64,000 nt of DNA from Minisyncoccota bacterium (GCA_043780835.1 JAYWCB010000002.1:27466-91465), one strand, 5' to 3'. Positions 41,096 to 60,253 are shown, counted from the first letter of the stretch. Notes: a model not told the origin generated them from the letters alone. Made by a program: numbers and translations.

Positions 41096-41908
41096 TCATT
41101 TCTTACCGATTGCCACCTCAATTTTTGCAAGATTCGACGCGACCGCCGCCTTGAATGCGGCCATACCCGCTGGAGCGGCAGCATATCCGTTGCCCGAATA
41201 CGCGCGTACAAATTGATCTTCAGTAAGTACACTGACCGCTTTTTCGGCGCGACGTGCCCACGTTTCTGCCTCTGTGAATGATTGGGTTTCATACAGCGCG
41301 ACCGCATATTCATTCATGAGCCACGGATTTTCCGGAAATTGCTGCATACCATCTACGAGCATATGCAACGCGCGATCAACGTGACCGCCTTTCAACATGA
41401 CCCATGCATAGTCGTTCATCGCAGACCAATTGAGCGACCCGTGAGGATTTAATCTAAGAAACGTAAGGAAATCACGACCCGCAGCGTCGTATTGTCCCGA
41501 AAATCCGTACGCAAGCGCGCGGATATAAAACGGCTTGTCGAAAGCTTCGCCCTGCAACGCGATTTCTTCATCAGCATAGACCCGTGCCTTTACAAGCTCA
41601 TTACGTAAGAACGCGATGCGTGCCAATTGGTAGTGAGCGCGCGGATACACAGGATCAATGTGCACGGTTTTAGAAAAGAAATATTCAGCGCGCATAAGAT
41701 CCTGGTGATCCGTTGCATCCATGAACTTCATGCCGTAACGAAATCCCCGCTCCCCACTCGGAAATCGCGAGAACGCGATCTTATCGCAGGCATACTCCAT
41801 TTCCCACCGCATTGTGTGCATATGTCCGGATGTTATACCGAACGCTATTATGGCCAGCGAGAGGCCTACTACAGCAGCGAGTTTATACGCCCGTCGTTCA
41901 CGTATCAT
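41096..41908 (-). CDS. N-terminally anchored TPR-repeat protein (paralog of 52035-52817 and 52834-53637)
   Basis: N-terminal TM, TPR-like repeats, conserved ...PENPWLMNEYAVALYE... block shared with the two paralogs. Confidence 0.5.
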   Translation of the reverse strand: MIRERRAYKLAAVVGLSLAIIAFGITSGHMHTMRWEMEYACDKIAFSRFPSGERGFRYGMKFMDATDHQDLMRAEYFFSKTVHIDPVYPRAHYQLARIAFLRNELVKARVYADEEIALQGEAFDKPFYIRALAYGFSGQYDAAGRDFLTFLRLNPHGSLNWSAMNDYAWVMLKGGHVDRALHMLVDGMQQFPENPWLMNEYAVALYETQSFTEAETWARRAEKAVSVLTEDQFVRAYSGNGYAAAPAGMAAFKAAVASNLAKIEVAIGKK

Positions 41909-41911
41909 GTG

Positions 41912-42370
41912 TTACCGCGGTGACGAACCTTGTACGATGGGCAGGTTCTCGACAATCCATTCGTTGGTCCCGCCACCGATGCGTCTCAAATTCAGATACC
42001 CGTGATGCTCGAGATAACCGTAGCCAACACCGGATTCACGTCCGCCTGCACAAATCAGCACGATCGTCTTTCCTTTTTTTGGAAACTGGGAATACCCATC
42101 AAAAAAGCGCGGAAGCGGTACATTGACCGCGCCGAGTGCATGCCCTTTTTCGTATTCGCTTCCTGATCGCACGTCAACAAACATGTACGAATCGGGATGT
42201 GCGAGAAAAGCAGCCTGAAATTCCGTGGGCGAAATATCTTTCGTAGCCGGTTCAATGATATGCAGATTCTGAAGCGGCGTAAGATAGATAATGAGCACAC
42301 TAGCAACAACGCCAATGATAAGAAAAAAGATTGCGATTAACGAAATACGCATATAAGAAAAGTATAGCAA
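41912..42370 (-). CDS. Membrane-anchored rhodanese-domain protein (sulfurtransferase-like); paralog of 53669-54196
   Basis: N-terminal TM. Rhodanese core FVDVRSGSEYEKGHALGAVNVP...IVLICAGGRES (active-site Cys loop CAGGRES). Confidence 0.7.
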   Translation of the reverse strand: MLYFSYMRISLIAIFFLIIGVVASVLIIYLTPLQNLHIIEPATKDISPTEFQAAFLAHPDSYMFVDVRSGSEYEKGHALGAVNVPLPRFFDGYSQFPKKGKTIVLICAGGRESGVGYGYLEHHGYLNLRRIGGGTNEWIVENLPIVQGSSPR

Positions 42371-43045
42371 CTATTTTAAAGTGTCGACGCGATGTATGAG
42401 CGACTGAATATAGTCAATCGCTACGCGCGTGCCGTTCCCCCTATTCCCCTGCACAAGAATGGACTTCCCCGCTCCTTCAATTACAACACCCGGCGTTGCA
42501 TCAACCCCCGCACCTTTGCCCTCAGCAATGTCGTCGTCCACAATCTTTTTCGCAACACCACTTGCAACACAGGTTCGCACGGGGGCGACTGCAATTCCGA
42601 CGGCTTCTGCTGCCGCATATCCCGCATTATCCGACTGCGACGTCGCAACAGGTTGATCAACTTTGAATAAGCGCGATACGTATTTCCAATATGTTTCTTC
42701 CCCATCAATACGCGCGATGCACTCTGCGATCTGCGCTTTCAAATATGCACCAGTATGTTCTTCGCGTGGAAAATTTTTATATATCACAACGATGCCGCCC
42801 CCATATGCAGCGTGAAGTTTTCCATAAGATCTTTCGTGAAAGTCCTTGCAGTGTGGACACTCGTAATCTGTAAATATCGTCAGTGTAATCGGCGCAGCGA
42901 GATTTCCTATCACATGCCGGGCTGCGGTGTGGACTGCCGATTGTGACTCTTGTCTACCGGTGTACACGGTCGTGAACACCAATACCGCAGTGATGACGAC
43001 TCCGATGACCGCTATCAGTGCAGTAATAAAGCGCACCGGTTTCAT
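42371..43045 (-). CDS. Membrane-anchored DsbA-like thiol:disulfide oxidoreductase; paralog of 54201-54899
   Basis: N-terminal TM. Thioredoxin CPHC active site in FTDYECPHCKDFHE. Confidence 0.7.
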   Translation of the reverse strand: MKPVRFITALIAVIGVVITAVLVFTTVYTGRQESQSAVHTAARHVIGNLAAPITLTIFTDYECPHCKDFHERSYGKLHAAYGGGIVVIYKNFPREEHTGAYLKAQIAECIARIDGEETYWKYVSRLFKVDQPVATSQSDNAGYAAAEAVGIAVAPVRTCVASGVAKKIVDDDIAEGKGAGVDATPGVVIEGAGKSILVQGNRGNGTRVAIDYIQSLIHRVDTLK

Positions 43046-43047
43046 GC

Positions 43048-44211
43048 TTATCGATTTGATCCAGTGAAGTCACGAGTCTGCCACCCAAGACGAATAAGCA
43101 ATTTCTTGAAGTTGGGATCTTTTGCCGCGAGCGCTACGAGATAGCGTTTTTTTCCTCGCGCGTCGTCTTTTTCACGCGCAAAATAACGGAACGCACTTGA
43201 ATGTTCATACGCATTGGATGCATACATCGGTGAAAGAATCTTCCTGATGTCAGCAGCGCGCTTTTCTCCGTACACTTGATTCAAAAAGCGTGCATATTGG
43301 AAGCGCGCCAGTCCGTCGTCAGGAGTACCCTTTACAACGGCGTACGAGGCAAGCACTTGAGAGAAGATATGTTCCGTTTTTTCTGGCGTACTTTCACCGA
43401 TCACCGCGAGACTACGCTCTATAGATGCGCGAAGTAACAGAGTCGGCGGTACGAGGTTTGCCGTATTGGGGTCGTCTTTCGAACGCGCGAGATTATGTTC
43501 CGCCGCATCAATACGACGGCGCAATTCTGTCAGGTATTCTTTTTGTTCGGCATCAGAAAGCTTCTGGTCTTTGCCGGTAAATGAGCGTTCAAGTTTGGTT
43601 GCATACCAATCGGCAACATACAGTTCTGAAAATGCGAGCGGATAGAAGTCTGAGGCGTATGCAAAGAGTTCGCGCTGTGTAAGCGACAGATCTTTCGGAT
43701 GGTAGAATGTTGCGAACGGAGGCTGGGAAAATATCTGATCCTCGAACACATTTCCAAATTCCTGCCAAAATCGGCCGATAGTCTGTATCGCGTATGCGCG
43801 CACAATGGGAGTGGCTTGACCGTCGCGTGCAATATTCATGTACAAATCAATTGCACCACCCACATTGCCGCGATCATACTCCGCGAGTCCGATTTTATAT
43901 CGTATTTGATCTTTTTGTTCTTTATCAGGCGCAGTGCCGATTGCCGATTGATAGAGCGCGATTGCGCTCGTTGCATTACCGAGCCGGCGCTGGTTTTCTG
44001 CATCTGCAAATGAGCCATTCCCTTGCATGAGATGCATGTAGGGGTCATTGGTACTGGTGTATTTGCTTTTGCTCGGAAAAATCCCACTCAAAGGAATCCC
44101 CATAAGAGTGAGCACAAGAAAAACCACAACGATAATCGCAAGGATTGCTCCGAGCGCATTTCGAATCGGGTGTTTTCGTACGGTGGTTTCGGGTTTCATG
44201 TATTGAATCAT
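43048..44211 (-). CDS. N-terminally anchored helical-repeat (TPR-like) protein; paralog of 54907-56031
   Basis: N-terminal TM. Shared block IRYKIGLAEYDRGNVGGAIDLYMNIA vs IRFKIALATEESGDFANAIAQYKSIA. Confidence 0.4.
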   Translation of the reverse strand: MIQYMKPETTVRKHPIRNALGAILAIIVVVFLVLTLMGIPLSGIFPSKSKYTSTNDPYMHLMQGNGSFADAENQRRLGNATSAIALYQSAIGTAPDKEQKDQIRYKIGLAEYDRGNVGGAIDLYMNIARDGQATPIVRAYAIQTIGRFWQEFGNVFEDQIFSQPPFATFYHPKDLSLTQRELFAYASDFYPLAFSELYVADWYATKLERSFTGKDQKLSDAEQKEYLTELRRRIDAAEHNLARSKDDPNTANLVPPTLLLRASIERSLAVIGESTPEKTEHIFSQVLASYAVVKGTPDDGLARFQYARFLNQVYGEKRAADIRKILSPMYASNAYEHSSAFRYFAREKDDARGKKRYLVALAAKDPNFKKLLIRLGWQTRDFTGSNR

Positions 44212-44492
44212 CCATCATCTGCGTCACCTGATCCACCTGCATCGCCTCCACAATCATCATCGTCGCCACCGGTTGACACATCGACCACTATCGCCTCTGC
44301 ATGAGCAACGGGCACATCGAGGTGAACTCTATCTGCTATCAAAGCGTGCTCGGGATCGTGAATGGATGTGTGAGGACTGATTGCAAAAAAAAGACCGAGA
44401 AAACTGAAAAAGATTCCGCTCGCCCACGAGACTTGTTTGATCAGACGTTTTGCGCGGCGCTCGATGAATACCATGCATTCATCATATCTCAA
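44208..44492 (-). CDS. Small membrane-anchored peptide with Gly/Asp/Cys-rich C-terminal tail; paralog of 56035-56310
   Basis: Basic N-terminus, TM helix ASGIFFSFLGLFFAISP, conserved VAHAEAIVVDVS, tail TGGDDDDCGGDAGGSGDADDG. First gene of the minus-strand operon. Confidence 0.4.
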   Translation of the reverse strand: MRYDECMVFIERRAKRLIKQVSWASGIFFSFLGLFFAISPHTSIHDPEHALIADRVHLDVPVAHAEAIVVDVSTGGDDDDCGGDAGGSGDADDG

Positions 44493-45930
44493 TTACATGA
44501 AGGAATGGGCACCTGCTGGGGAAAAGGTTTTTCAAGCGAAGACTATCGGCCTGATATACACTACTGCCATGTTTCGTTTCAGGCGCATCGGCGAGTACTA
44601 CAAACGCCTCTTTTCAGTTTCTGAAATTGAAACGACACCGGTGCTGCAATGGATGTGCGGTGTCACACTCCTCTTCTTTTACGCCACCTTCACGCGCTGG
44701 ATTTACAGCGATGAAGCCACGATTGATGCGGTGAATCGCGGCGCCGCATACTGCTGGCCGTATTTTCAAAGCTGTCACGCTCTCTTTTTCCTGCATAGCT
44801 TACCTTACAGCTACGTGCAGATGACCTTTTACATGGGACTGCTTGTCAGTATGTGCGCAACCGTGTACGCAATGTGGAAAAAACGGTGGGCGCTGGTACA
44901 CGCACTCCTCTCGATACTTTTTGCATGGAAGCTGTGGGTGATGTTTGTGCTTTCATACGAGATTTCGGGCAATTACGACTACTACCACGTGTTCCTCACC
45001 TTTTTACTCCTTGTGGTGCCGCATAAAGAGTATTTCCTCAAACTATGCTTCGTGGTTCTCTATTTCCTTTCCGTTACAACAAAATTTCATCAAACGTGGA
45101 TCCTGGGCAGCTACTTTACGTCGCTCCATACCGGTACGCCTCTTTTTCCTGATGCGGTTGCGCCCCTGCTCACCAATACCGTGATCTTTATGCAGGTTAT
45201 CGGCAGTTGGTTTTTAATCAGCAGGAACTGGCCGCTACAACGCCTCTCGCTTACATACTTCACGATATTCCATTTGTATTCGGGGATTCTCGTGCGCTAC
45301 CTCTATCCCTCGATCGCACTTACCGCACTCCTCGTATTGTTTGGGCCCCTCTATCGGTACACGCCACCGCCGCGATCCTTACTCAAAGCGCTGCCGGGAG
45401 CACTGCTCATTCTTACGCAGTTCGCATTTCAGATGCCTGCTCATTTCATAGTCGGTGATCAGAAACTGACGCTCGAGGGTAATAAGTACGGCATGTACAT
45501 GTTCGAAGCGAATCATCAATGTATCGGGCATATGAAATATATTGAGCGACGCGACGGTCCGGTTGCGGAAACGTTTTCTCAGATTCCACCCGGTACACAA
45601 TGTCCGGGAGGGTCGTGTGTGACGAAGCGCCACACATACGCAGACGGAGCGTACACTGTGCGCGAAGAAACATGGGAGTCAGCCGTCGCTTGGAACCGCT
45701 GCGATCCCTATTTGTTCTGGCAGCGGACTCGTCGATTTTGTGAGTTGCCGCGGGCGGTACGGGTCGATATGCAGTTCGACCACTCAATAGACGGCGGGCC
45801 ATTTTATCGCATTATCGATGAGCGAGATATTTGCGGCCTCACCTATCATCCGTTCGTGCACAATAATTGGATTCTGCTTCCACCCGACGCAAAGATCGTC
45901 GGCTATCCCGTCCAAAATATCTTGCGATAA
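44437..45930 (+). CDS. Large polytopic membrane protein with Cys-containing C-terminal soluble domain (possibly HTTM/vitamin-K-carboxylase-like). Start uncertain (maybe 44572).
   Basis: About 8-10 TM helices, then conserved C-domain (ANHQC...QFDHSIDGGPFYRI.DE..IC.L.Y). Paralogous to the next gene. Confidence 0.4.
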   Translation: MIRRFARRSMNTMHSSYLNYMKEWAPAGEKVFQAKTIGLIYTTAMFRFRRIGEYYKRLFSVSEIETTPVLQWMCGVTLLFFYATFTRWIYSDEATIDAVNRGAAYCWPYFQSCHALFFLHSLPYSYVQMTFYMGLLVSMCATVYAMWKKRWALVHALLSILFAWKLWVMFVLSYEISGNYDYYHVFLTFLLLVVPHKEYFLKLCFVVLYFLSVTTKFHQTWILGSYFTSLHTGTPLFPDAVAPLLTNTVIFMQVIGSWFLISRNWPLQRLSLTYFTIFHLYSGILVRYLYPSIALTALLVLFGPLYRYTPPPRSLLKALPGALLILTQFAFQMPAHFIVGDQKLTLEGNKYGMYMFEANHQCIGHMKYIERRDGPVAETFSQIPPGTQCPGGSCVTKRHTYADGAYTVREETWESAVAWNRCDPYLFWQRTRRFCELPRAVRVDMQFDHSIDGGPFYRIIDERDICGLTYHPFVHNNWILLPPDAKIVGYPVQNILR

Positions 45931-45933
45931 GCT

Positions 45934-47760
45934 ATGCCTACAACGTCACCAACATTTATTGTATTAACAGAGCTTGTAGGACACGCTCCCGCGTCTCTCA
46001 ATCAAATACAGGCTGTGATTGCACCGCATGTGCATTCCCTGACGGTAACGTGGCTCGCGCTGTGGTGTACAGCGCTTGTCTTTGCAATCCGAGCACTCAT
46101 CAACAAAATCCGATTTCCGGAACTCGATGTGCCGAGTACGACTCCATCGATTTCATTCGAGCTACCACCGATACTCACTCGCATACGCGTCCTGTACAGA
46201 CGATTATTCTCTGTTTCTGAAATTGAGCATTCGCTCGTACTCAGATGGCTCTATGGGGCGATGCTGTTCGGATTCTTTACCTCGTTTGGAAATTGGATAC
46301 TTGATTCGTCGATCACCGCAGAAACTGCTTCGAAAGGTGCGCAGATCTGCTGGACGTATTTTCCGCAGTGTGGTCAGTGGTATGTGCTGCATACCCTGCC
46401 CTACGGATACTCATATACGAGTGTATACATGGTGCTGTACGCCGTCATGCTTGCCTGCGTTTTTGCGATGTGGAAGAAATCGTGGACGTCTGCGCATGCA
46501 TTGATGATGATCCTCTTTGTGTGGAAAGTGCTTGTGATGTTCGTGCTCACCGCTTCTATTCAGGGTGGCCCGAACTACCACCATGTACTGATCACCTTCG
46601 TGCTCTTATTTCTCCCGTATAAGGAGTTTTTCGCGCGCGTGTCGTTTGTCGTCATGTATTTCTTGTCGGCAGTCATCAAGCTTGATGAATCGTGGATACT
46701 GGGCGAATATTTTACATCGCTTCAGTCCGGACTGCCCGTGTTCGGAAACACACTTGCGCCCATCTTTACCAACGCGGTCATCGGCATGCAGATCATTTTG
46801 GGATGGTTTTTGCTCAGTGGAAGAAGTCGCATCCAAAAAACGGCGCTCGTGTGCTTTAGCGTGTTCCATATCTATGCAGGTATTTTTGTCGGGTACACGT
46901 ATCCCATACTCGCGCTCTCCATGCTGTGGATTCTGTTTGGACCACTGTTTCACGTAAGTACAATCCCGCTTAACCGTCGTTCGGTGGCAGGATGGATAAC
47001 ACTCATCGCGCTTTTTGCATTTCATGCACCGGCACATCTCATAGAAGGCGATCAGCGAATGACACAAGAAGGAAGTCGCTTCGGATTGAATTTATTTGAC
47101 GCGAATCATCAGTGTGCGAGTACCCTCTCGATCTACGCTACATCGAGTACACCTGTGCGCGATACGCAATGGTCCGCAAAACCGCGGCAAACCTGTGGTG
47201 ATTATATTTGTCTCACCACCACGATTACGCACGAAGCCGACGACATGGTTGTAACGCGCGAACGGTGGGAATCTCCCGTATCGTGGCAACGGTGTCGCGT
47301 ATCTACGTTTTGGTCAATTGCAAAACAACAGCATTGCAGCGATCCGGGTGTGCTTCGCGTGCAGATGCAATTTGATCACTCAATTGACGGTGGACCGTTT
47401 TACCGCATCGTAGACGAGCAGAATATTTGCACACTTTCATATCAGACATTTAGCCACAACGGCTGGATAAAAATGCCACCAGAAGCACCCATCGTCGGAT
47501 ATCCGGTCAAAAATGTTTTCCGCTACCAGCGTCAAAGCGGCAGCGCGTTCAATGAACGTGCCCCTCAAATTTCTACGTCTTCAGATATCATCGCGCTCAA
47601 CGAACTCGTGGGTAACGATCGGATACAGCGCACCAGTCTCCAGAGCGCGGTTGCGCCATACTTTCCGGTGCTCGTGTTCTTCTGGCGCGTTATCTGGACA
47701 ATGATGTGTGCACTCGTGATCAGTCGCGTGTGGTTTGCATATCAGCGAACCAAAAAATAA
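45934..47760 (+). CDS. Paralog of 44437-45930: large polytopic membrane protein (HTTM-like?) with extra C-terminal TM
   Basis: Colinear similarity, e.g. RLFSVSEIE, HVLITFVLLFLPYKEFF, QFDHSIDGGPFYRIVDE. Confidence 0.4.
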   Translation: MPTTSPTFIVLTELVGHAPASLNQIQAVIAPHVHSLTVTWLALWCTALVFAIRALINKIRFPELDVPSTTPSISFELPPILTRIRVLYRRLFSVSEIEHSLVLRWLYGAMLFGFFTSFGNWILDSSITAETASKGAQICWTYFPQCGQWYVLHTLPYGYSYTSVYMVLYAVMLACVFAMWKKSWTSAHALMMILFVWKVLVMFVLTASIQGGPNYHHVLITFVLLFLPYKEFFARVSFVVMYFLSAVIKLDESWILGEYFTSLQSGLPVFGNTLAPIFTNAVIGMQIILGWFLLSGRSRIQKTALVCFSVFHIYAGIFVGYTYPILALSMLWILFGPLFHVSTIPLNRRSVAGWITLIALFAFHAPAHLIEGDQRMTQEGSRFGLNLFDANHQCASTLSIYATSSTPVRDTQWSAKPRQTCGDYICLTTTITHEADDMVVTRERWESPVSWQRCRVSTFWSIAKQQHCSDPGVLRVQMQFDHSIDGGPFYRIVDEQNICTLSYQTFSHNGWIKMPPEAPIVGYPVKNVFRYQRQSGSAFNERAPQISTSSDIIALNELVGNDRIQRTSLQSAVAPYFPVLVFFWRVIWTMMCALVISRVWFAYQRTKK

Positions 47761-47782
47761 AAACCCGGGCGAACCCGGGTTT
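47761..47782. terminator. Hairpin terminator (aaacccgggc-gaa-cccgggttt), strong on the minus strand (followed by TTATTTTTT)
   Basis: Perfect stem between the convergent 45934-47760(+) and 47801-48028(-) genes. Confidence 0.45.
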
Positions 47783-47800
47783 CTAAAACCGTCATTTCAA

Positions 47801-48028: not shown

Positions 48029-48145
48029 TGATTCCTCCCTTGATGAGGCTGCCGGTCGTGTGACAGCTGGCGATTTTATACCACATGCTGGCTAAATTGC
48101 AATCTGCTCAATGACCCGATCTCAGCACAGCGGTATACTCTCACC

Positions 48146-49891
48146 ATGTCGCTACTCGCTGCTCGTGATCGTATTAAACGTGCAATCGAAACACGCGCAT
48201 ATGTAGATGTCAGACAAGGTACGATCGTTCAAAGAAACAAACAGGTGAAGACTGAAGGGTGGCTTATCGATATTCGTTCAATACTACTCGATTCTGATGT
48301 ACTCTCTGACATAGCGGAAGTATTTTGGGACTCGTTTCGAGAAATGAACGATGTGCAGATCGGCGGCATTGAAACTGCCGCTATCCCGCTCATTACCTCG
48401 CTTGTTACACATGCAAAGACGTATGCACAGCGCGAACACACATCGGGATTTTATATACGCAAATCACGAAAGAAAGACGGGCTTCTTAAAATGATCGAAG
48501 GAACACTCGTACCGGATGTGCCAGTGATACTCGTAGATGATCTCATCAATAGCGGACAAAGCCTGATTCGTCAGGTTGAAGTTTTACGCGATCACGGCAC
48601 AGCGGTGCACGCGGTGTGGACCCTTGTGCGATTCCGGGATCCTGAATTCTATACGTATTTTTCAGAGCGGAATATTCCAATATATTCGCTATTCACGCTC
48701 AACGATTTTCACGATTCACTTGGCCTGAGCAATCGGACAAGTGGTGCGCTCGACGAGCGATACGCGCCGTTTCGCGTGCTATGGCGGTACGGCTCGCCAC
48801 GCCCGAGTTACCAACACGTGGTTCCAAAATCTGATCCCGTAATCGACGAGCAGCTACTGTTTATTGGATCTGACACCGGTCACATGCGTGCCTTGCGCCA
48901 AAAAGACGGTGGTATCGCGTGGGAGTTTAAAACCGGCACACACGCACACGGCAAAGGTATTTTTTCTACACCAGCGCTCCACAATGGAGTTCTCTATTTC
49001 GGATCGTATGACGGCAATGTATACGCCCTCGATGCAATGACGGGTCGCACGAAATGGACCTATTGGGATGCGGACTGGGTCGGTTCATCGCCCACTCTTG
49101 CACCCGATCTCGGGATACTCTTTATTGGATTGGAATTCGGATTATGGAGAAAACGCGGCGGCATTGCCGCACTCGATATGCGTACCGGAAAGACGGCGTG
49201 GGAACATATAATGCCGTGCTATACGCACTCATCTCCACTGTATATTCCAAAACACGCGCAGGTCGTTATTGGAAGCAATGACGGCGCAGTGTATTTGTAC
49301 AACGCATCCACCGGCACGCTTCTGTGGAAATATGAAAAAGCCGCCCTCACCGCACGCGAGCTCGAAACGGGATTCGGTGAGCGCGACATCAAAGAATCAT
49401 TTGCCTACGACGCAGCGCGCGACATCATTCTGTTTGGCGCCATGGACGGCACGCTGACCGCGCTCGAGCGCTCAACAGGGAGAGCGCTGCGGTCATTCCA
49501 GGCAGAATTCGGCATCTATTCAACCCCCATTATTCACGGTGATACCGTTATTTTTAGCTCTCTCGATAAACATCTGTATTGCCTCAATATTGATACTTTA
49601 GAATTGAAATGGAGGTGGTACGCAGGTGCTCGTCTATTTGCCACGCCAGTTATCATGGGCGGCATGATATATATCGGTGCCAATACCGGGAGATTAACCG
49701 TACTCGACGCTGAATCAGGCCTCGCTCGCACTTATTTCACCGTAAGCGAACGAATCACAAATAGGATTGCATTCAACCCGATCACGCGACATCTTTTTCT
49801 CACAACGTTTGCCAACGAGGTGTACTGCCTTGAGCAACCACCATCAATGGCAGATATTACGAACCTGCCGGCTCGTACCACTGTGGAATAA
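48146..49891 (+). CDS. Orotate-PRTase-like (type I PRTase) domain fused to a PQQ-repeat beta-propeller; paralog of 58610-60253
   Basis: PRPP-binding loop PVILVDDLINSGQSL, PyrE-like IRKSRKKDGLLKMIEG. Then repeated DGNVYALDAMTGRTKW / DGAVYLYNASTGTLLW / DGTLTALERSTGRAL propeller blades. Confidence 0.55.
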   Translation: MSLLAARDRIKRAIETRAYVDVRQGTIVQRNKQVKTEGWLIDIRSILLDSDVLSDIAEVFWDSFREMNDVQIGGIETAAIPLITSLVTHAKTYAQREHTSGFYIRKSRKKDGLLKMIEGTLVPDVPVILVDDLINSGQSLIRQVEVLRDHGTAVHAVWTLVRFRDPEFYTYFSERNIPIYSLFTLNDFHDSLGLSNRTSGALDERYAPFRVLWRYGSPRPSYQHVVPKSDPVIDEQLLFIGSDTGHMRALRQKDGGIAWEFKTGTHAHGKGIFSTPALHNGVLYFGSYDGNVYALDAMTGRTKWTYWDADWVGSSPTLAPDLGILFIGLEFGLWRKRGGIAALDMRTGKTAWEHIMPCYTHSSPLYIPKHAQVVIGSNDGAVYLYNASTGTLLWKYEKAALTARELETGFGERDIKESFAYDAARDIILFGAMDGTLTALERSTGRALRSFQAEFGIYSTPIIHGDTVIFSSLDKHLYCLNIDTLELKWRWYAGARLFATPVIMGGMIYIGANTGRLTVLDAESGLARTYFTVSERITNRIAFNPITRHLFLTTFANEVYCLEQPPSMADITNLPARTTVE

Positions 49892-50726: not shown

Positions 50727-50747
50727 ACGTACTACAATTGTACTTCA

Positions 50748-52004: not shown

Positions 52005-52034
52005 ACGTGTGAGTATAGATGATACGTAACAGTA

Positions 52035-54196: not shown

Positions 54197-54200
54197 AAAA

Positions 54201-56034: not shown

Positions 56035-56310
56035 TTAGCCGCAACTACCGCCACTACCACCACTATCACATCCGGATCCACTGTCACTTCCTCCGGCGCT
56101 TCCGGCTCCGGAGTCAACCACTTCTGCGTGAACAGTTCCTGCGCCCAACACAGTGTCGCTCAAATGAGCAGATGATTTTGGCGAAGCCGTATAAAAGAGT
56201 ACGGTAAAAAATCCCACGGCTATGATGGAAGCTGCGGTTATCTTTCGGTAGTATCTGGAAAACGTCGAAATACCTTGTACGAGAAATGCCATATACGTAT
56301 TATTCCACAA
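56035..56310 (-). CDS. Small anchored peptide with Gly/Ser/Cys-rich C-terminal tail (candidate RiPP/TOMM-type precursor)
   Basis: TM AASIIAVGFFTVLFYTASP, conserved TVHAEVVDS, tail GAGSAGGSDSGSGCDSGGSGGSCG. Divergent from the YcaO-SagB genes. Confidence 0.45.
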   Translation of the reverse strand: MWNNTYMAFLVQGISTFSRYYRKITAASIIAVGFFTVLFYTASPKSSAHLSDTVLGAGTVHAEVVDSGAGSAGGSDSGSGCDSGGSGGSCG

Positions 56311-56399: not shown

Positions 56400-57839
56400 A
56401 TGATTCTTGATGCTGAGCTGTTTACTGTAGTCAAGAATGCCCACAATACGGACAGTTCTCAAAGTCCGATCGCGCGGTTTATTGCCTACATTGAAAAAAA
56501 ACTCGGCGTTGTTGTAGCGTACGATAAACACGACCTGCCCTATGGAAGGACAGATCTTTCGCAACAATTTACACTTGCTGCAAAACTTGAACACGCCGGT
56601 ATCCTTCGCACGTTCGGTCCAATCATTCCATTGGCGGACGAACCGCAAATGCGCTTATGGGGAACCCGCGACACGACCGATCAACACGCCGGTGGCGCAA
56701 CAATGAATGACGACGCGGCGGCATTGACCGCAGCGCTTGCAGAGGGTTTGGAGCGCTCAATTTGGAGAACGAAAAACGATTATTTTGACGGTGCTATCCG
56801 TGCGACAGTCGGAGAAATTGCGATCAAAGGCAGGTACATCGCCCCAAAATCCTTTGCAAGTTTCTCTGAGGAGCAGCGGGAAGGAAACTCACAACTACGC
56901 CTGCCTCCGGAAGCAACGTACACATGGATTAAGGGTAAATCATTGGTATCAAACGAAGCAACCTATGTGCCTGCTCAGACCGTGAGCGGTAATCGCGCCT
57001 GGCTTACCGATCCGTACAGTGAACCACGAATCCGTATACCGATTACCATCGGTCTCGCCACGTGGCCTACACGATCGGGTGCGCAACTCGCCGGCGCACT
57101 GGAAGTGATCGAACGAGAGGCGTATATGATTATGTGGCTCAACCAGCTCACGCTTCCCCACATTCGCTTGGAAGATTTACAAGCAAAGTACCCCGAACTT
57201 GAATCGGTATTATCTGACTGTAAACGATATCGCATCAAGCCGCACGTGATACCCATGCTTACCGATGCACCTGTGCATGCGGTCAGTGTCATTTTAGAGG
57301 ACATGTCGGGCAACGCACCCCGTTTTATTATCGGGTTAAAAGCCCATCGGTCGTTTGCGCTTGCGGTCGAAAAAGCCATTACCGAAGCCCTTCGTGGACG
57401 AGCATTTTGCCGAAGAGATTTTCTTCCCAAGGGCGACTGGGACACCTCGCGATCCGTAGACACCGTTGGTCATTATGAGCGACTCTATTATTGGAGCCAT
57501 CCGCAAAACGCGCGCAAATTGGAATTTCTGGTGAGCGGCGCGGAAATAGCCGTGCCGGAAACAACATGGGAAAATTTGTCGATCGAGGAACATCTCAAAA
57601 TGGTTACCGCATGGTGCGCGACGAATCAATTCGATTGCATTTCGGTATCATTGAGCACTAAAAAAAACAATCCCACGTCTTGGTACATTGAAATGGTGGT
57701 TATCCCGCAACTGCAACATACGTATCTCGACGAAAAACTCCGTCAACTCGGTGGAACGCGCCGCTTAGAGGTACCGAAACTGTTCGGCTATTCACCACGA
57801 CCCGCACCATACCTTGACGACCCTCATCCGTACGCATGA
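56400..57839 (+). CDS. YcaO-domain protein (ATP-dependent peptide-backbone-activating enzyme; cyclodehydratase/thioamidase family)
   Basis: GGATMNDDAAALTAALAEGLERSIW matches the YcaO ATP-binding region (G.G......A..SAL.EA.ER, ExxER). About 480 aa, typical size. Confidence 0.6.
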   Translation: MILDAELFTVVKNAHNTDSSQSPIARFIAYIEKKLGVVVAYDKHDLPYGRTDLSQQFTLAAKLEHAGILRTFGPIIPLADEPQMRLWGTRDTTDQHAGGATMNDDAAALTAALAEGLERSIWRTKNDYFDGAIRATVGEIAIKGRYIAPKSFASFSEEQREGNSQLRLPPEATYTWIKGKSLVSNEATYVPAQTVSGNRAWLTDPYSEPRIRIPITIGLATWPTRSGAQLAGALEVIEREAYMIMWLNQLTLPHIRLEDLQAKYPELESVLSDCKRYRIKPHVIPMLTDAPVHAVSVILEDMSGNAPRFIIGLKAHRSFALAVEKAITEALRGRAFCRRDFLPKGDWDTSRSVDTVGHYERLYYWSHPQNARKLEFLVSGAEIAVPETTWENLSIEEHLKMVTAWCATNQFDCISVSLSTKKNNPTSWYIEMVVIPQLQHTYLDEKLRQLGGTRRLEVPKLFGYSPRPAPYLDDPHPYA

Positions 57840-58596
57840 GCATATGACGATTTTTCTTTCACATCTGCATACTGCTTTACGCGCAACGCGATTCACCCGC
57901 CGAGGCGCGACGCGTCGACCTGAAGACGTGCCGCAAGGCACACATAAAGAATACAGTCGTATGGAACGTATTTCACTGCCGGAACCCGTGGTATTGGATA
58001 TTTCTCTACCCGAAGCGCTCTCCCGCCGTGTTTCATCACTGAATCAGGGTGGGGATACGCCGCTTTCGCTGCAGGATATTGGCACCGTATTTGGACTTGC
58101 GCTCAGACAGCACGCCGATTCGAATCACAGAAATTATCCGTCCGGTGGCGCACTCTATCCGATTGAAACGTATTTGATTGCAACATCACTGGAAGGTGCG
58201 GCTCCCGGGGTGTACCACTATCACCCCTCTGCACATGCACTTGAATACTTATGGGAACTCGAGCCGAATTTTGATATCACCCGACTCGTTCAGAAACCGG
58301 AGTTTCTCTTACCTTCCGCACTGATCGTGTTCACGAGTGTATGGCGTCGATCATCCGCAAAATACGGCGATTTCACGTACGGACTTTCATTACTCGAGGC
58401 AGGCCACATGTCGGAAAACGTGCTTCTCGTCTCAAGTGCACTCAAGCTCCAGGTGCGCCCCATGGCAGGATTCGACGACCAGCGAACGAATGATCTTTTG
58501 GACCTTGACCCTGATCTCGAGCAAGCGGTGCACTCTATTACGCTTTCGAAAGGCGCGCATGTGCAGACTCGCGCCCGTATGGATGCAGACGAATGA
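57814..58596 (+). CDS. SagB/McbC-type FMN-dependent dehydrogenase (nitroreductase fold)
   Basis: Hallmark NYPSGGALYPIETY (PSAGALYP-type motif). Size about 250 aa. Start may be the second Met at 57844 to avoid overlap with ycaO. Confidence 0.6.
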   Translation: MTTLIRTHEHMTIFLSHLHTALRATRFTRRGATRRPEDVPQGTHKEYSRMERISLPEPVVLDISLPEALSRRVSSLNQGGDTPLSLQDIGTVFGLALRQHADSNHRNYPSGGALYPIETYLIATSLEGAAPGVYHYHPSAHALEYLWELEPNFDITRLVQKPEFLLPSALIVFTSVWRRSSAKYGDFTYGLSLLEAGHMSENVLLVSSALKLQVRPMAGFDDQRTNDLLDLDPDLEQAVHSITLSKGAHVQTRARMDADE

Positions 58597-58609
58597 GCAA
58601 TGCTCGTGT

Positions 58610-60253
58610 ATGACCGCACAAGAAAAATTATTTCATCATGCAATCGCTGCCGGGGCTTTTATCCGCTCAAACGCGATAACTCCCATCATTCGATCCGAGC
58701 ATACCGGTGATCGGGATGAGTGGATATTTGATTTCAGAGCAATCATGCTGCAACCGACATGGCTTGCCTGCTACGCTGAACTATTCTGGGAACGATTCGC
58801 GACTCAGTACCCGTTTCAAGTGGGAGGACTTGAAACGGCATCAATCGCACTTATTACTGCAATCGTGATGAAAGGAATTGAGCGAGGCACACCAGTAAAT
58901 GGGTTTTATGTGCGAAAGTCGCGAAAACGACAGGGACTTATGAAACAAGTGGAGGGCACGCTGACCGATGATCCGATCGTACTCGTTGACGACCTCATAA
59001 ATTCGGGACAATCCTTCCTTCGACAACTTGAGATCCTCGAAAGTCTGGGGAAAACCGTTCGGGACGTGTTCGTAATCCTCGCGTTCCGCGACGATGCGAC
59101 CTATCACTTTTTAAACGATCGTGGTGTTCGTTTTTCAAAACTGTTTACGGTTGCTGATTTCGATATTCCACTCCTCAAGGAAACACCGGATGTCCCGGAT
59201 GATGCATTTGTTGAACATTGGTTGTATGCGCCGCAGCACATGAGTCACTATAATGTGGTACAAAAATCAGCTCCCATCCTGTTCGAAAACCTCATTCTGT
59301 ACGGCGGCGACGATGGTATCTTTCGAGCACTCGATAGCGAACATGGAACCGTCGTATGGAATTTTAAAGTAGGACGACATCCGGATGGAAAAGGAATATT
59401 GTCCTCGCCGTGCATATACAACGGCACGGTATTTTTTGGCGCGTATGACGGTAACGTATACGCGCTCAATGCGCGCAGCGGTACGCAACAATGGCAATAC
59501 GACCACGCAGATTGGATCGGTTCATCTCCTGCGGTAGCAGGAAAATTTGGAGTCATATGTATCGGTCTTGAATTCGGATTGTTCAGAAAGAGAGGCGGCA
59601 TCGCCGCGATCGATATTGCGACCGGTGTCGAACGGTGGAACGCACCACATGCAGCCCTTACCCACGGTTCGCCACTCTACATCGAATCAGAAGACATCGT
59701 CGTCATTGGCGATAATGACGGTGTCGTATACGCATATCGTGCTTCTGACGGTGAACTGTTGTGGCGAACACCGTGCGATAGTGACATCAAGACGACTCCT
59801 GCATATGACGCAAAACGTAAACAGATACTGTGCGGCACGATCAAAGGAACTCTCTATGCATTGTCCGTACACAACGGTTCTCCGATGCGCGCGTTTTCGA
59901 CTGCGGGATTTTATTCGATACCGCTCGTGATTGATGATGTGGCCTACGTTGCATCGCTCGACAAGCACCTGTACGCCCTCGATCTCGTCAGTTGGAAGCC
60001 GCGATGGGAGTTTCGCACCAATGGCCGCATTTTTGCATCGCCTCGCCTCTTCGACGATTCGGTATGGATCGGCTCCAACGACGGCAGACTCTACGAGATC
60101 GATCCGAAGACAGGCACGCTCATTCGTTTTTTCCAAACGACCGAAAGAATTTTGAACGCGGTCGAGTATGACGCATCGTCAAAAAAGATATATATTCCGA
60201 CATCATCGAACGGCATGTACTGCATATCTAAAAAGATGGGTGCGGATGCATAA
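58610..60253 (+). CDS. Orotate-PRTase-like domain fused to PQQ-repeat beta-propeller (paralog of 48146-49891)
   Basis: PIVLVDDLINSGQSF, FYVRKSRKRQGLMKQVEG, DGNVYALNARSGTQQW propeller blades. Start trimmed to MTAQEK after the SagB stop. Confidence 0.55.
   Translation: MTAQEKLFHHAIAAGAFIRSNAITPIIRSEHTGDRDEWIFDFRAIMLQPTWLACYAELFWERFATQYPFQVGGLETASIALITAIVMKGIERGTPVNGFYVRKSRKRQGLMKQVEGTLTDDPIVLVDDLINSGQSFLRQLEILESLGKTVRDVFVILAFRDDATYHFLNDRGVRFSKLFTVADFDIPLLKETPDVPDDAFVEHWLYAPQHMSHYNVVQKSAPILFENLILYGGDDGIFRALDSEHGTVVWNFKVGRHPDGKGILSSPCIYNGTVFFGAYDGNVYALNARSGTQQWQYDHADWIGSSPAVAGKFGVICIGLEFGLFRKRGGIAAIDIATGVERWNAPHAALTHGSPLYIESEDIVVIGDNDGVVYAYRASDGELLWRTPCDSDIKTTPAYDAKRKQILCGTIKGTLYALSVHNGSPMRAFSTAGFYSIPLVIDDVAYVASLDKHLYALDLVSWKPRWEFRTNGRIFASPRLFDDSVWIGSNDGRLYEIDPKTGTLIRFFQTTERILNAVEYDASSKKIYIPTSSNGMYCISKKMGADA

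What the first reader, a model, noticed from the sequence alone, without database searches (positions are those of the whole stretch)
44437..47760. Tandem paralogous polytopic membrane proteins with conserved Cys-containing C-terminal domain (HTTM/VKGC-like?)
Both have about 8-10 TM helices, then about 170 aa containing ANHQC, C..G.C/C.DY.C and the strongly conserved QFDHSIDGGPFYRI(I/V)DE..IC.L(T/S)Y. Architecture and context (DsbA neighbour, Cys-rich secreted peptides) resemble HTTM-domain proteins such as SdpB. The family assignment is my inference only.
Basis: inference. Interest (0 to 1): 0.5.

Follow-up and report, generated by a model that had tools for sequence, protein, structure and literature searches.

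The report
Divergent vitamin-K-carboxylase-like membrane enzyme pair
Two adjacent genes of an ultra-small (CPR/Paceibacteria) bacterium encode very distant, unannotated relatives of the human vitamin K-dependent carboxylase that keep its quinone pocket and catalytic lysine and lie in a conserved peptide-modification gene cluster, pointing to vitamin-K-type chemistry on secreted peptides in organisms not known to make quinones.

The parts
44497..45930 (+). Catalytic-Lys equivalent K196 = 45082-45084; W201 = 45097-45099; F258-H259 = 45268-45273; C86 = 44752-44754; C415 = 45739-45741.
45934..47760 (+). Protein B, paralog of A (608 aa): VKGC-like core at about aa 78-530, with a small-membrane-protein module fused at each end. 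Active-site motif KLDESW at aa 249-254 (K249 = 46678-46680).
   Evidence: BLASTP to A, E 2e-151. AF2 pLDDT 87.7. Foldseek top 15 hits all GGCX, E 7e-7. Motif and coordinates.
45934..46104 (+). N-terminal module of B (aa 1-57), homologous to the free-standing 60-70 aa single-pass protein that follows the VKGC-like gene in other genomes. It is probably the partner subunit of A fused to B.
47575..47754 (+). C-terminal module of B (aa 548-607), a second copy of the small single-pass protein, fused after the extracytoplasmic domain.
   Evidence: HMM 48.1 bits, E 4.2e-11. Helix 568-607 modelled at pLDDT 94-97. Weaker C-terminal fusions in other family members.
44208..44492 (-). Precursor-like exported peptide (94 aa): signal-anchor, VAHAE motif, acidic tail GGDDDDCGGDAGGSGDADDG. 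Candidate substrate.
   Evidence: ORF. Same architecture in 17 ORFs of 14 related loci, with a recurrent [IV]AHADAP-type motif. Tail 34% acidic.
43048..44211 (-). 387 aa membrane-anchored TPR-like protein of unknown function (paralog at 54907-56031). Frequent neighbour of the family.
   Evidence: Pfam weak TPR_16. Homologs within 10 kb of 26 of 57 family genes (category 'p', which pools p387, p374, p168, p289 and p418).
42371..43045 (-). DsbA-like thioredoxin-fold protein (CPHC motif).
   Evidence: Thioredoxin_4 E 2.4e-22, DSBA E 6.7e-9. Near only 6 of 57 homologs. Its paralog at 54201-54899 sits in the cluster that lacks a VKGC-like gene.
41912..42370 (-). Membrane-anchored rhodanese-domain protein.
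   Evidence: Rhodanese E 3.8e-13.
41096..41908 (-). TPR protein; conserved member of the minus-strand module.
   Evidence: TPR_19 E 1.4e-11. TPR homologs within 10 kb of 28 of 57 family genes.
48146..49891 (+). PRTase + PQQ-like beta-propeller fusion protein. The propeller is the commonest conserved neighbour of the family.
   Evidence: Beta-prop_ACSF4 E 1.6e-44, PQQ_2 E 7.6e-31, Pribosyltran E 5.5e-6. Within 3 kb of 30 and within 10 kb of 39 of 57 family genes.
56035..56310 (-). Second precursor-like exported peptide (91 aa; VHAE motif, tail SGAGSAGGSDSGSGCDSGGSGGSCG), in the paralogous YcaO cluster.
   Evidence: ORF. Family. Composition.
56400..58596 (+). SagD-like YcaO cyclodehydratase (56400-57839) and SagB-family peptide dehydrogenase (57814-58596). 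In most related genomes these lie immediately upstream of the VKGC-like gene in one operon.
   Evidence: YcaO E 4.9e-40 and Nitroreductase. TIGR03604 at 146 bits, below the 219 cutoff; TIGR03605 at 114.7 bits, above the 78.4 cutoff. Synteny.
58337..60253 (+). Second PRTase + beta-propeller paralog. The listed GTG start overlaps the SagB gene, so the true start is probably downstream.
   Evidence: ORF list.

Best explanation
A and B are integral-membrane enzymes of the vitamin K-dependent gamma-carboxylase (VKGC/HTTM) superfamily. They belong to a deeply divergent, unannotated, essentially CPR-restricted family. Each has a nine-helix membrane domain (N-terminus inside) and a ~160 aa extracytoplasmic domain. 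That domain is probably held by four disulfides and corresponds to the first lumenal subdomain of GGCX. The propeptide-clamp jelly roll and C-terminal domain of GGCX are absent.

The quinone pocket and general base of GGCX are retained: Lys (K196 in A, K249 in B) stacked on Trp, the Phe and Met that sandwich the naphthoquinone ring, and Gln/Glu in place of Asp263. The residues that hold the glutamate substrate and CO2 are not retained.

Most likely mechanism (inferred): the enzyme binds a membrane quinol at the outer leaflet. The Lys deprotonates it and O2 converts it to a strong base. That base activates a C-H of a residue in an exported peptide held by the extracytoplasmic domain, leading most plausibly to carboxylation of Asp/Glu, as in GGCX and in MloH, which acts on Asp.

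The likely substrates are the signal-anchored peptides encoded divergently next to the operon: an AHADAP-like motif followed by a Gly/Ser/Asp/Cys-rich tail. The same clusters also encode a SagD-like YcaO and a SagB dehydrogenase, so the enzyme would act as a tailoring enzyme of a TOMM-like peptide or protein.

A 60-70 aa single-pass protein (N-out, C-in) is a subunit. It is a separate gene in many genomes. In B it is fused at the C-terminus (B's own copy) and at the N-terminus (probably A's copy, which would tether A and B).

Shown here: paralogy, fold, profile homology, residue conservation, synteny and the fusions. Inferred: cofactor, chemistry, substrate and the A-B complex.
For: Fold:
- Foldseek with the A model: the 9 best PDB hits are all GGCX (E 6.7e-7 to 2.3e-5, probability 1.0, about 470-515 aligned columns); the next hit has E 0.5.
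- Foldseek with the B model: the 15 best are all GGCX; the next has E 0.095.

Sequence:
- hhalign of the 285-sequence family profile against a vertebrate GGCX profile: probability 91.5%, E 8.4e-7, score 64.2 over 316 columns. The null of 31 reversed or block-shuffled profiles has mean 22.1, SD 3.2, maximum 35.1.
- Sub-threshold Pfam VKGC_lumenal_dom hits in 2 members (E 0.069 and 0.0077).

Residue mapping and conservation over 285 members:
- K218 to K196 (98%); W223 to W201 (98%); G226 to G204 (95%).
- F286-H287 to F258-H259 (98%); D263 to Q/E233 (98%); M401 to M335 or M333.
- H408-Q409 to H340-Q341; C99 to C86 (97%); C450 to C415 (98%).
- B reads KLDESW where GGCX reads KLDADW.
- PMC12647623 gives the roles in GGCX: K218 is the base, W223 stacks on it, F286 and M401 sandwich the quinone, and K218 and D263 hydrogen-bond to it.

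Topology: the positive-inside pattern gives N-in and the C-terminal domain outside. Cysteines co-vary in pairs.

Context:
- One operon YcaO-SagB-VKGC-like-small-propeller in L001, L004, a JGI locus and many GTDB loci.
- Of 28 genes with at least 5 kb on both sides, 22 have a propeller or YcaO within 5 kb.
- The SagB model is above its curated cutoff.
- A precursor-like family occurs in 14 loci plus 2 in the window.

Small subunit.

Precedents: MloH carboxylates Asp (PMC12647623 discussion). Bacterial HTTM proteins are predicted to pair with a single-pass partner (bioRxiv 10.64898/2026.08.19.745780).
Against: - No activity, cofactor or substrate was tested.
- The GGCX residues that bind the Glu carboxylate and CO2 are not conserved: H160 maps to Y/F, Y395 to N329 (E327 in the alignment), F299 to V/L, and N159 is only partly kept.
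- Asp263 is Gln in both A and B.
- CPR genomes are reported to lack quinone biosynthesis (PMC8407418), and no quinone or respiratory gene lies in this 64 kb window.
- The reaction needs O2, and many CPR bacteria are thought to be anaerobes.
- Pfam HTTM does not detect any member.
- With the 50-sequence alignment alone, hhalign was not above the null (27.8 against a null maximum of 27.7).
- The residue mapping rests on profile alignment, not on superposed coordinates, which were not available.
- The YcaO link is frequent but not universal: 21 of 57 within 10 kb.
- The precursor search selected for Gly/Ser/Asp-rich tails, so their composition is partly circular.
- About 430 aa family members have no small subunit.
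Confidence: 0.55

Rival explanations
1. The VKGC-like chemistry is kept but the outcome is not carboxylation. The quinol- and O2-derived base (or an epoxidase-only reaction) drives a different modification of the exported peptide, such as epimerisation, elimination or cross-linking. Alternatively the protein serves peptide maturation or export as proposed for SdpB.
For: The quinone site is conserved but the Glu/CO2 site is not. The propeptide clamp B and C-terminal domain are absent, since the alignment ends near GGCX residue 504. From my own knowledge, not checked here: the Leptospira VKGC orthologue was reported to epoxidise vitamin K without carboxylating, and SdpB is needed for SDP toxin maturation.
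Against: The only bacterial homolog with a described reaction that I found, MloH, is a carboxylase acting on Asp, and the candidate substrates are rich in Asp. There is no NCBIfam SdpB-family hit.
Confidence: 0.2
2. The proteins are quinone-linked thiol oxidases or disulfide-relay partners, functional analogues of DsbB, VKOR or MauE. They would reoxidise the neighbouring DsbA-like protein so that Cys-rich secreted proteins can fold.
For: A DsbA-like gene and a rhodanese lie next to A and B. There are eight conserved cysteines, two of them in the first outer loop as Cx6C. One related locus has a DCC1-like thiol-disulfide oxidoreductase gene 3 kb away, and bacterial HTTM proteins occur fused to DCC1-like domains.
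Against: - DsbA is within 10 kb of only 6 of 57 homologs.
- In this window the second DsbA paralog sits in the cluster that lacks any VKGC-like gene.
- There is no CxxC motif.
- Cysteines are lost or gained in pairs, and one pair is absent from about half the family, as expected for structural disulfides.
- C86 and C415 align with the two cysteines of GGCX's C99-C450 pair, which I recall to be a structural disulfide.
- VKOR is not a structural match (4nv2, E 3.7, probability 0.08).
Confidence: 0.12
3. The proteins are catalytically inactive descendants of a VKGC-like enzyme and serve as a membrane scaffold or receptor for the cluster's other proteins.
For: CPR bacteria are reported to lack quinone biosynthesis. 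Substrate-site residues are not conserved. The genes are duplicated and fused to a small partner, as in structural complexes.
Against: Pseudoenzymes normally lose the catalytic base and cofactor pocket. Here K196, W201, F258 and H259 are 98% conserved across 285 sequences that are otherwise only 23-55% identical.
Confidence: 0.08
4. The resemblance to VKGC is a chance or compositional similarity between polytopic membrane proteins, and the family is an unrelated transporter or permease.
Against: - Two independent models hit GGCX exclusively, with a gap of at least four orders of magnitude in E-value to the next fold.
- The profile-profile score is about 13 SD above shuffled controls that keep membrane-like composition.
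- The alignment is colinear across both the membrane and soluble domains and matches the functional residues and both cysteines of the C99-C450 pair.
- There are no MFS, ABC or other transporter hits.
Confidence: 0.03

Closest known systems
[quoted passage not shown]
   Same: Nine-helix membrane domain followed by an extracytoplasmic (lumenal) domain. Conserved K-x4-W-x2-G active-site motif (KLDESW in B, KLDADW in GGCX). The Phe and Met that sandwich the quinone, the F-H motif, the H-Q motif and both cysteines of the C99-C450 pair are all present. The only PDB fold match for both paralogs.
   Different: 12-15% identity. About 450 aa core against 758 aa. Lacks the jelly-roll clamp B and the C-terminal domain that bind the propeptide. 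Glu/CO2-site residues N159, H160, Y395 and F299 are not conserved. Asp263 is Gln or Glu. Six extra conserved cysteines. A separate or fused small single-pass subunit. Found in bacteria (CPR) in a YcaO/SagB context.
MloH, the Streptomyces VKGC orthologue of malonomycin biosynthesis (Law et al. 2018, as cited in PMC12647623 and bioRxiv 10.64898/2026.08.19.745780)
   Same: A bacterial VKGC-type enzyme used as a tailoring enzyme in natural-product biosynthesis. It acts on an aspartyl residue, and the candidate substrates here are Asp-rich.
   Different: MloH is recognisably a GGCX orthologue found by BLAST and acts on a PKS-NRPS intermediate. The present family is undetectable by Pfam HTTM and sits in a ribosomal-peptide (TOMM-like) context. 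No sequence of MloH was available here for direct comparison.
Bacterial HTTM(+DCC1-like) proteins with a single-pass DUF5819 partner (bioRxiv 10.64898/2026.08.19.745780)
   Same: A 'split' bacterial VKGC-like enzyme: an HTTM membrane protein plus an adjacent single-pass partner gene that is fused in some relatives. Conserved Lys/Trp/Phe around a predicted menaquinol site.
   Different: The partner here is a 60-70 aa protein with no Pfam match, not DUF5819. Here the extracytoplasmic domain is part of the main chain. There is no fused DCC1-like domain. The taxon and gene context differ.
SdpB / HTTM family (Pfam PF05090; NCBIfam SdpB family)
   Same: A polytopic HTTM-superfamily membrane protein encoded next to a secreted peptide that needs maturation.
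   Different: No PF05090 hit in 60 members scanned and no NCBIfam hit. The present proteins also carry the VKGC-type extracytoplasmic domain.
TOMM (thiazole/oxazole-modified microcin) RiPP clusters: SagB, SagC, SagD
   Same: A SagB-family dehydrogenase (above the curated cutoff) and a SagD-like YcaO lie next to short ORFs with Gly/Ser/Cys-rich C-terminal cores.
   Different: The precursors start with a signal-anchor instead of a cytoplasmic leader and are strongly acidic. No SagC/E1-like partner was identified. The cluster adds a VKGC-like membrane enzyme, a PRTase-beta-propeller and TPR proteins. No paper in the searched library mentions both HTTM and YcaO.

Membership tests
VKGC/HTTM superfamily | GGCX-type fold: multi-helix HTTM membrane domain followed by the lumenal domain | tested here: met
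VKGC/HTTM superfamily | Significant profile-level sequence similarity to GGCX | tested here: met
   hhalign of the 285-sequence profile against the GGCX profile: probability 91.5%, E 8.4e-7, score 64.2, against a shuffled null of mean 22, SD 3.2, maximum 35. Not significant with the 50-sequence profile.
VKGC/HTTM superfamily | Match to Pfam HTTM (PF05090) at or above the gathering score | tested here: not met
   No PF05090 hit even at E<=10 for A, B, 48 further members of A1, or 10 divergent representatives.
VKGC/HTTM superfamily | Match to Pfam VKGC_lumenal_dom (PF22777) at or above the gathering score | tested here: not met
   Only two sub-threshold hits: E 0.069 and P0255 at E 0.0077, 16.6 bits against a cutoff of 27.7. 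They fall on the FD..SIN..RI.D motif region.
VKGC/HTTM superfamily | Catalytic general base Lys218 with stacking Trp223 | tested here: met
   K196 and W201 align to K218 and W223 in both hhalign runs. Each is 98% conserved in 285 members. B reads KLDESW against GGCX KLDADW.
VKGC/HTTM superfamily | Naphthoquinone-ring contacts Phe286, Met401 and Asp263 | tested here: inconclusive
   F286 maps to F258 (98%). M401 maps to M335 or M333 depending on the alignment. D263 maps to Q233, which is Gln in 58% and Glu in 40% of members. No coordinates were available to confirm the geometry.
VKGC/HTTM superfamily | Both cysteines of the Cys99-Cys450 pair linking the membrane and lumenal domains | tested here: met
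   C86 aligns to C99 and C415 to C450. They are 97% and 98% conserved. That the two cysteines are bonded is not tested here, and that C99-C450 is a disulfide in GGCX is from my own knowledge.
Gamma-glutamyl carboxylase proper (functional GGCX orthologue) | Glu- and CO2-site residues Asn159, His160, Tyr395 and Phe299 | tested here: not met
   H160 maps to Y/F160. Y395 maps to N329 or E327. F299 maps to V266 or L265. N159 maps to N (37%) or P (44%). An invariant-looking His (H164, 72% conserved) lies one helical turn away, so its equivalence is unresolved.
Gamma-glutamyl carboxylase proper (functional GGCX orthologue) | Propeptide-binding clamp B (jelly roll) and C-terminal domain | tested here: not met
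   The alignment ends at about GGCX residue 504 and the proteins end about 15 residues later. The model has a single small beta/alpha domain.
Gamma-glutamyl carboxylase proper (functional GGCX orthologue) | Vitamin K hydroquinone-, O2- and CO2-dependent carboxylation activity | not testable with these tools
   Requires biochemistry.
SdpB family (NCBIfam) | Match to the curated SdpB-family model | tested here: not met
   No NCBIfam family at E<=10 for A or B.
VKOR / DsbB-type quinone-dependent thiol oxidases | VKOR fold or Pfam match with an active-site CxxC | tested here: not met
   No Pfam hit. VKOR 4nv2 Foldseek E 3.7, probability 0.08. No CxxC among the conserved cysteines.
DoxX/DoxD | Pfam DoxX/DoxD match | tested here: not met
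   No such hit in 60 members at E<=10.
   No Pfam hit. The ABC and RND structures listed by Foldseek have E>=0.5 and TM<=0.17.
TOMM-type RiPP cluster (context) | SagB-family dehydrogenase, YcaO cyclodehydratase and a Cys/Ser-rich precursor in one locus | tested here: inconclusive
   SagB TIGR03605 scores 114.7 bits, above the 78.4 cutoff. YcaO matches SagD TIGR03604 best but below cutoff (146 against 219). Precursor-like ORFs are present. No C-protein/E1-like partner was identified. The products are unknown.

The most novel reading that the evidence does not exclude
A CPR-specific branch of the vitamin K carboxylase superfamily is a tailoring enzyme for ribosomally made, exported, TOMM-like acidic peptides. 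It would carboxylate Asp/Glu, or otherwise activate them, on the outer face of the membrane, using a quinol the cell cannot make itself and must take from its host. That would make it the first RiPP-associated VKGC-type enzyme, and the first vitamin-K-type chemistry in Patescibacteria, possibly producing Ca2+- or metal-binding surface peptides involved in host attachment.
Probability: 0.25. Interest if true: 0.8.

Novelty: new variant of a known kind. Interest (0 to 1): 0.62.

Why it matters
GGCX was long regarded as an animal enzyme with a few bacterial orthologues, and its structure and mechanism were solved only in 2025.

- **A large hidden branch.** The family has 658 clusters at 50% identity, carries no annotation in any database searched, and is found almost only in CPR bacteria. 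It keeps the quinone site and catalytic lysine but changes the substrate site. This extends the superfamily and gives a natural experiment on which parts of the GGCX machinery are essential.
- **A new tailoring step.** Its fixed association with SagB and YcaO enzymes and exported acidic Gly/Ser/Asp/Cys peptides suggests a new class of tailoring step for ribosomal peptides.
- **A testable question about cofactors.** It raises the question of how organisms reported to lack quinone biosynthesis could run quinone chemistry, perhaps with host-derived cofactor.
- **A practical gain.** About 470 hypothetical proteins at 90% clustering, plus a companion 60-70 aa protein family, can now receive a structural annotation.

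Tried and rejected
- **Single-sequence and 50-sequence searches found nothing useful.** These were Pfam and NCBIfam on A and B, phmmer and hmmsearch against PDB sequences (which gave only chance hits to Fc-epsilon-RI beta and cofilin), and Pfam on 60 family members.
- **hhalign with the 50-sequence alignment was not significant.** It gave probability 1.9%, and the score equalled the null maximum. I therefore did not rely on it alone and rebuilt the profile from 285 sequences.
- **The afdb50 Foldseek library was unavailable**, so I could not see which bacterial AlphaFold clusters are closest.
- **VKOR, DoxX and SdpB were rejected** (see the membership tests).
- **DsbA as a specific partner was rejected** on synteny counts and on the arrangement of the second cluster.
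- **The small protein as substrate is less likely than as subunit.** It is fused to the enzyme at either end in different lineages, and its C-terminal copy is modelled confidently against the core.
- **A clean split into an A-type and a B-type subfamily with distinct neighbourhoods was not crisp**, so I do not claim it.
- **The source organism could not be named.** The database entries carry no name; the nearest named relatives are Paceibacterota and Kaiserbacteria MAGs.
- **Literature searches** for HTTM with YcaO, and for YcaO in CPR bacteria, found no prior description.

Full report
**1. The observation**

The ORF listing shows two consecutive plus-strand ORFs, 44437..45930 (497 aa from TTG) and 45934..47760 (608 aa). 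A TAA stop, three bases and an ATG separate them.

BLASTP of one against the other gives 46% identity over 449 residues, E 2e-151.

The database copy of A is 477 aa, starting at ATG 44497. The TTG at 44437 overlaps a conserved, divergently transcribed ORF at 44208-44492. I therefore take 44497 as the start and number A accordingly.

**2. Standard annotation finds nothing**

- Pfam and NCBIfam give no hit for either protein.
- phmmer and a 50-sequence profile against all PDB sequences give only chance matches.
- The word-indexed search finds 471 homologs at E<=1e-3. All are 'hypothetical', and the named ones come from Paceibacterota, Kaiserbacteria or Parcubacteria MAGs.
- An exhaustive profile search of 1.84 billion cluster representatives finds 658 clusters with E<=1e-3 and 176 with E<=1e-30.
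- 51 loci in GTDB species representatives are almost all Patescibacteria. A few contigs are labelled Proteobacteria, Oligoflexia or Methanosarcinales and may be misbinned.

**3. Fold**

AlphaFold2 with the family alignment gives a confident model of A (pLDDT 88.0, pTM 0.88). It has nine long helices followed by a beta-rich domain with one long helix.

- Foldseek against the PDB returns nine hits with E<=0.001. All are human vitamin K-dependent gamma-carboxylase (E 6.7e-7 to 2.3e-5, probability 1.00, TM 0.51-0.54 normalised to the query, 470-515 columns, 13-15% identity). The tenth hit has E 0.5.
- The independently modelled paralog B (pLDDT 87.7) gives 15 GGCX chains as its best hits (E 7e-7 to 1e-3), then a gap to E 0.095.
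- VKOR appears only as noise (4nv2, E 3.7).

**4. Sequence-level homology**

I confirmed that the human GGCX sequence I used is identical over 758 residues to PDB chain 13ib_A. I then built a 20-sequence vertebrate alignment from it.

- hhalign of the 50-sequence family alignment against it gave a colinear 324-column alignment, but with probability only 1.9%. Its score of 27.8 equals the maximum of a null built from reversed or block-shuffled GGCX profiles. On its own this is not evidence.
- With 285 non-identical family members aligned to the family HMM, the result is probability 91.5%, E 8.4e-7, score 64.2 over 316 columns. The null has mean 22.1, SD 3.2 and maximum 35.1 from 31 profiles.
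- Two members also give sub-threshold Pfam hits to VKGC_lumenal_dom (E 0.069 and 0.0077). Pfam HTTM (PF05090) never appears.

**5. Residue mapping** and conservation over 285 members

The roles in GGCX come from PMC12647623. Lys218 is the general base that deprotonates vitamin K hydroquinone, and Trp223 stacks on it. The naphthoquinone ring is sandwiched by Phe286 and Met401 and hydrogen-bonds to Lys218 and Asp263. Asn159, His160 and Tyr395 hold the substrate Glu, and Phe299 holds CO2.

| GGCX residue | Residue in A | Conservation in family |
|---|---|---|
| K218 | K196 | 98% |
| W223 | W201 | 98% |
| G226 | G204 | 95% |
| F286-H287 | F258-H259 | 98% each |
| D263 | Q233 | Gln 58%, Glu 40% |
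| M401 | M335 (M333 in the first alignment) | hydrophobic; Met is the commonest residue at position 333 (position 335 not tabulated) |
| H408-Q409 | H340-Q341 | 79% and 90% |
| C99 | C86 | 97% |
| C450 | C415 | 98% |
| H160 | Y/F160 | not conserved as His |
| Y395 | N329 or E327 | not conserved |
| F299 | V266 or L265 | hydrophobic only |
| N159 | N (37%) or P (44%) | partly conserved |

In B the active-site stretch reads KLDESW, against KLDADW in GGCX. The alignment ends near GGCX residue 504, so the jelly-roll clamp B and the C-terminal domain are absent.

In short, the cofactor half of the active site is kept and the substrate half is not.

**6. Topology and disulfides**

Loops rich in Lys/Arg alternate with loops that carry the cysteines and acidic residues:

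- K/R-rich: the N-terminal 47 residues (8 K/R), KKR at 128-130, SRN at 242-244, and YRYTPPPRS within loop 283-294.
- Cys-bearing or acidic: 70-106 (C86 and C93), 198-221, and the C-terminal domain (6 Cys).

This gives N-in and C-terminal domain out. K196 then lies at the outer end of helix 5, which matches GGCX, where the active site is at the lumenal membrane interface.

Cysteine patterns across the family: 131 members have all eight, 120 lack C369 and C374 together, and about 20 lack C342 and C402 together. This supports pairs C369-C374 and C342-C402. By analogy with GGCX, C86 pairs with C415, which leaves C93-C446. The cysteines therefore look structural.

**7. Genomic context**

Look-ups of four homologs on long contigs and an ORF/phmmer survey of 55 loci show a recurrent arrangement next to the rplC-rplD ribosomal genes.

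- Minus strand: two proteins without Pfam match (homologs of window p168 and p289), one or two TPR proteins, sometimes rhodanese and DsbA, a ~375 aa TPR-like protein, and a small ORF.
- Plus strand, divergent: YcaO, nitroreductase, the VKGC-like gene, a 60-70 aa ORF, and a PQQ-like beta-propeller.

| Neighbour | Of 57 family genes |
|---|---|
| Propeller within 3 kb | 30 |
| Propeller within 10 kb | 39 |
| Nitroreductase within 10 kb | 25 |
| YcaO within 10 kb | 21 |
| DsbA within 10 kb | 6 |
| Second family copy within 10 kb | 8 |

Of the 28 genes with at least 5 kb of flank on both sides, 22 have a propeller or a YcaO within 5 kb.

NCBIfam names the nitroreductase a SagB-family peptide dehydrogenase (114.7 bits, cutoff 78.4). 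The YcaO matches the SagD family best (146 bits, below the 219 cutoff).

In the window this cluster is present twice and has been partitioned:

- Cluster 1 (40.6-49.9 kb) keeps A, B and a PRTase-propeller.
- Cluster 2 (49.9-60.3 kb) keeps YcaO, SagB and a PRTase-propeller.
- Each has its own TPR, rhodanese, DsbA and ~380 aa paralogs and its own small ORF.

**8. Precursor-like peptides**

The small divergent ORFs share an architecture: a basic N-terminus, a hydrophobic anchor, a spacer, a motif of the type [IV]-A-H-A-D-A-P, then a Gly/Ser/Asp/Cys-rich tail with almost no basic residues.

- Window: 44208-44492 and 56035-56310.
- Other loci: L001 5445-5672, L004 5444-5734, and 13 further ORFs found by a composition heuristic (17 in 14 loci in all).
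- Over 813 tail residues the composition is 36% Gly, 22% Ser, 16% Asp, 6% Cys and 0.6% Lys+Arg.

The heuristic selected for such tails, so composition is partly circular. The motif was not selected for, yet it is present in all 19. In the window, the peptide next to A and B has a 34% acidic tail with one Cys. The peptide next to YcaO/SagB has a 14% acidic tail with 8 Ser and 2 Cys (n=1, suggestive only).

These are the most plausible substrates. They are predicted to be exported, as the active site of the VKGC-like enzyme requires, and they are rich in Asp. The bacterial GGCX orthologue MloH carboxylates an aspartyl residue (PMC12647623).

**9. The small membrane protein and the structure of B**

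A 60-70 aa ORF lies within 300 nt downstream of 17 of 57 family genes. Its consensus is M..sT..lIVLkELaGN.P..L..iQ..l.PH......W...W..T, followed by a basic tail.

- Weaker C-terminal matches occur in several ~485-520 aa family members.
- The predicted N-out/C-in orientation fits fusion both before an N-in core and after an extracytoplasmic domain.
- In the B model the C-terminal helix (568-607) has pLDDT 94-97 although few other sequences in the alignment cover it. The N-terminal module has pLDDT 39-73.

I infer that each core has one docking site. B's own subunit is fused at its C-terminus, and A's subunit has become fused to B's N-terminus, which would tether A and B. This was not tested.

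A 2026 preprint gives a precedent. It predicts that bacterial HTTM proteins pair with an adjacent single-pass DUF5819 protein to rebuild a GGCX-like assembly, with conserved Lys, Trp and Phe around menaquinol. The small protein here has no Pfam match.

**10. Problems for the mechanism**

- GGCX chemistry needs a reduced quinone and O2.
- CPR genomes are reported to lack quinone biosynthesis, although some carry quinol oxidases (PMC8407418).
- The rest of the window is housekeeping, with no quinone or respiratory gene.
- The substrate-site residues differ from GGCX.

Carboxylation is therefore the leading guess, not a conclusion. A different base-driven modification, or a thiol-oxidase role, remains possible. 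The thiol-oxidase idea is weakened by the synteny counts and by the pairwise loss of cysteines.

**11. Comparison with what is known, and novelty**

The proteins work like, and descend from, the VKGC/HTTM superfamily. Fold, profile homology, the catalytic Lys/Trp, the quinone contacts and the conserved cysteine pair were all tested and met.

They are not members of Pfam HTTM or of the SdpB family as currently defined. They also fail the features that define a gamma-glutamyl carboxylase proper, namely the Glu/CO2 site and the propeptide clamp.

I found no paper that mentions HTTM together with YcaO, and no description of this cluster in CPR bacteria. I rate it a new variant of a known kind: a large, unannotated, CPR-centred branch with a reduced architecture, a detachable small subunit and a TOMM-like context.

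**12. Verdict**

Corrections concern the start of A, the composite nature of B, and the context, which is YcaO/SagB/propeller rather than DsbA.
- My confidence is about 0.9 that these are true VKGC-superfamily homologs with a retained cofactor site.
- My confidence is about 0.3 that they carboxylate acidic residues of the neighbouring exported peptides.
- Interest: 0.62.

Noticed in passing
window 40593-49891 versus 49857-60253: The conserved CPR cluster is present twice and has been partitioned. Copy 1 keeps the two VKGC-like genes and a PRTase-propeller. Copy 2 keeps the SagD-like YcaO, SagB and a PRTase-propeller. Each copy has its own TPR, rhodanese, DsbA, ~380 aa protein and precursor-like ORF. 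In most other genomes all plus-strand genes form one operon.
   Followed up: yes
window 44208-44492 (-) and 56035-56310 (-); L001 5445-5672, L004 5444-5734 and 13 further ORFs (17 in 14 loci): A family of signal-anchored small proteins with an [IV]AHADAP-type motif followed by a Gly/Ser/Asp/Cys-rich, almost base-free tail of 26-71 residues. It has no Pfam match and looks like a RiPP precursor that is exported.
   Followed up: partly
L001 9350-9547, L003 9417-9599, L004 9360-9569 and 14 other loci; window 45934-46104 and 47575-47754: A new 60-70 aa single-pass membrane protein family (LxELxGN.P...Q...PH...W...W) encoded directly downstream of the VKGC-like gene. In the window it exists only as fusions to both ends of protein B.
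   Followed up: yes
window 48146-49891 (+) and 58337-60253 (+): Two paralogous fusions of an orotate-PRTase-like domain to a PQQ/BamB-like beta-propeller, apparently cytoplasmic (no signal or TM segment noticed). The propeller is the commonest neighbour of the family and its role is unknown. The GTG start at 58337 overlaps the SagB gene by about 260 nt, so the real start is probably downstream.
   Followed up: partly
window 47801-48028 (-): A 75 aa secreted Cys-rich protein matching DUF6719 (E 1.8e-7) is wedged between B and the PRTase-propeller. No counterpart was found in the 55 related loci, so it looks like a local insertion.
   Followed up: partly
window 40593-41099 (-), 49857-50726 (-), 50748-52004 (-): Three membrane-anchored or secreted proteins without Pfam or NCBIfam match (168, 289 and 418 aa; the last is very Cys-rich, the second has YYQA/PPPQ repeats). 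Their homologs recur on the minus-strand side of the cluster in many loci.
   Followed up: partly
JGI locus of P0036, about 3 kb downstream of the VKGC-like gene: A DCC1-like thiol-disulfide oxidoreductase gene (PF04134), a domain reported to occur fused to bacterial HTTM proteins, lies near the cluster in one genome.
   Followed up: no
L031, L035, L036, L038, L042, L044, L048: Some family loci come from MAGs labelled Proteobacteria, Alphaproteobacteria, Oligoflexia or Methanosarcinales, and many from MAGs labelled 'Saccharibacteria'. These could be misbinned contigs or mislabels, or real spread outside Paceibacteria. Not resolved.
   Followed up: no
L036 3903-6587, L040 1-1840, L043 8399-13006, L011 9896-15796: Tandem or nearby second copies of the VKGC-like gene occur in other genomes too, so the pairing seen in the window is a recurrent theme.
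   Followed up: partly
window 1-40000: The remainder is typical CPR housekeeping: the ribosomal protein operon (about 24-40 kb), IF3, GARS, NDK, adenylate kinase, Met aminopeptidase, a DinB-like polymerase (2933-4291), a LexA-like S24 peptidase (6319-6897), a Na/Ca exchanger (15624-16670) and a TraG/VirD4-like coupling ATPase (17790-20600). There are no quinone-biosynthesis or respiratory genes.
   Followed up: partly
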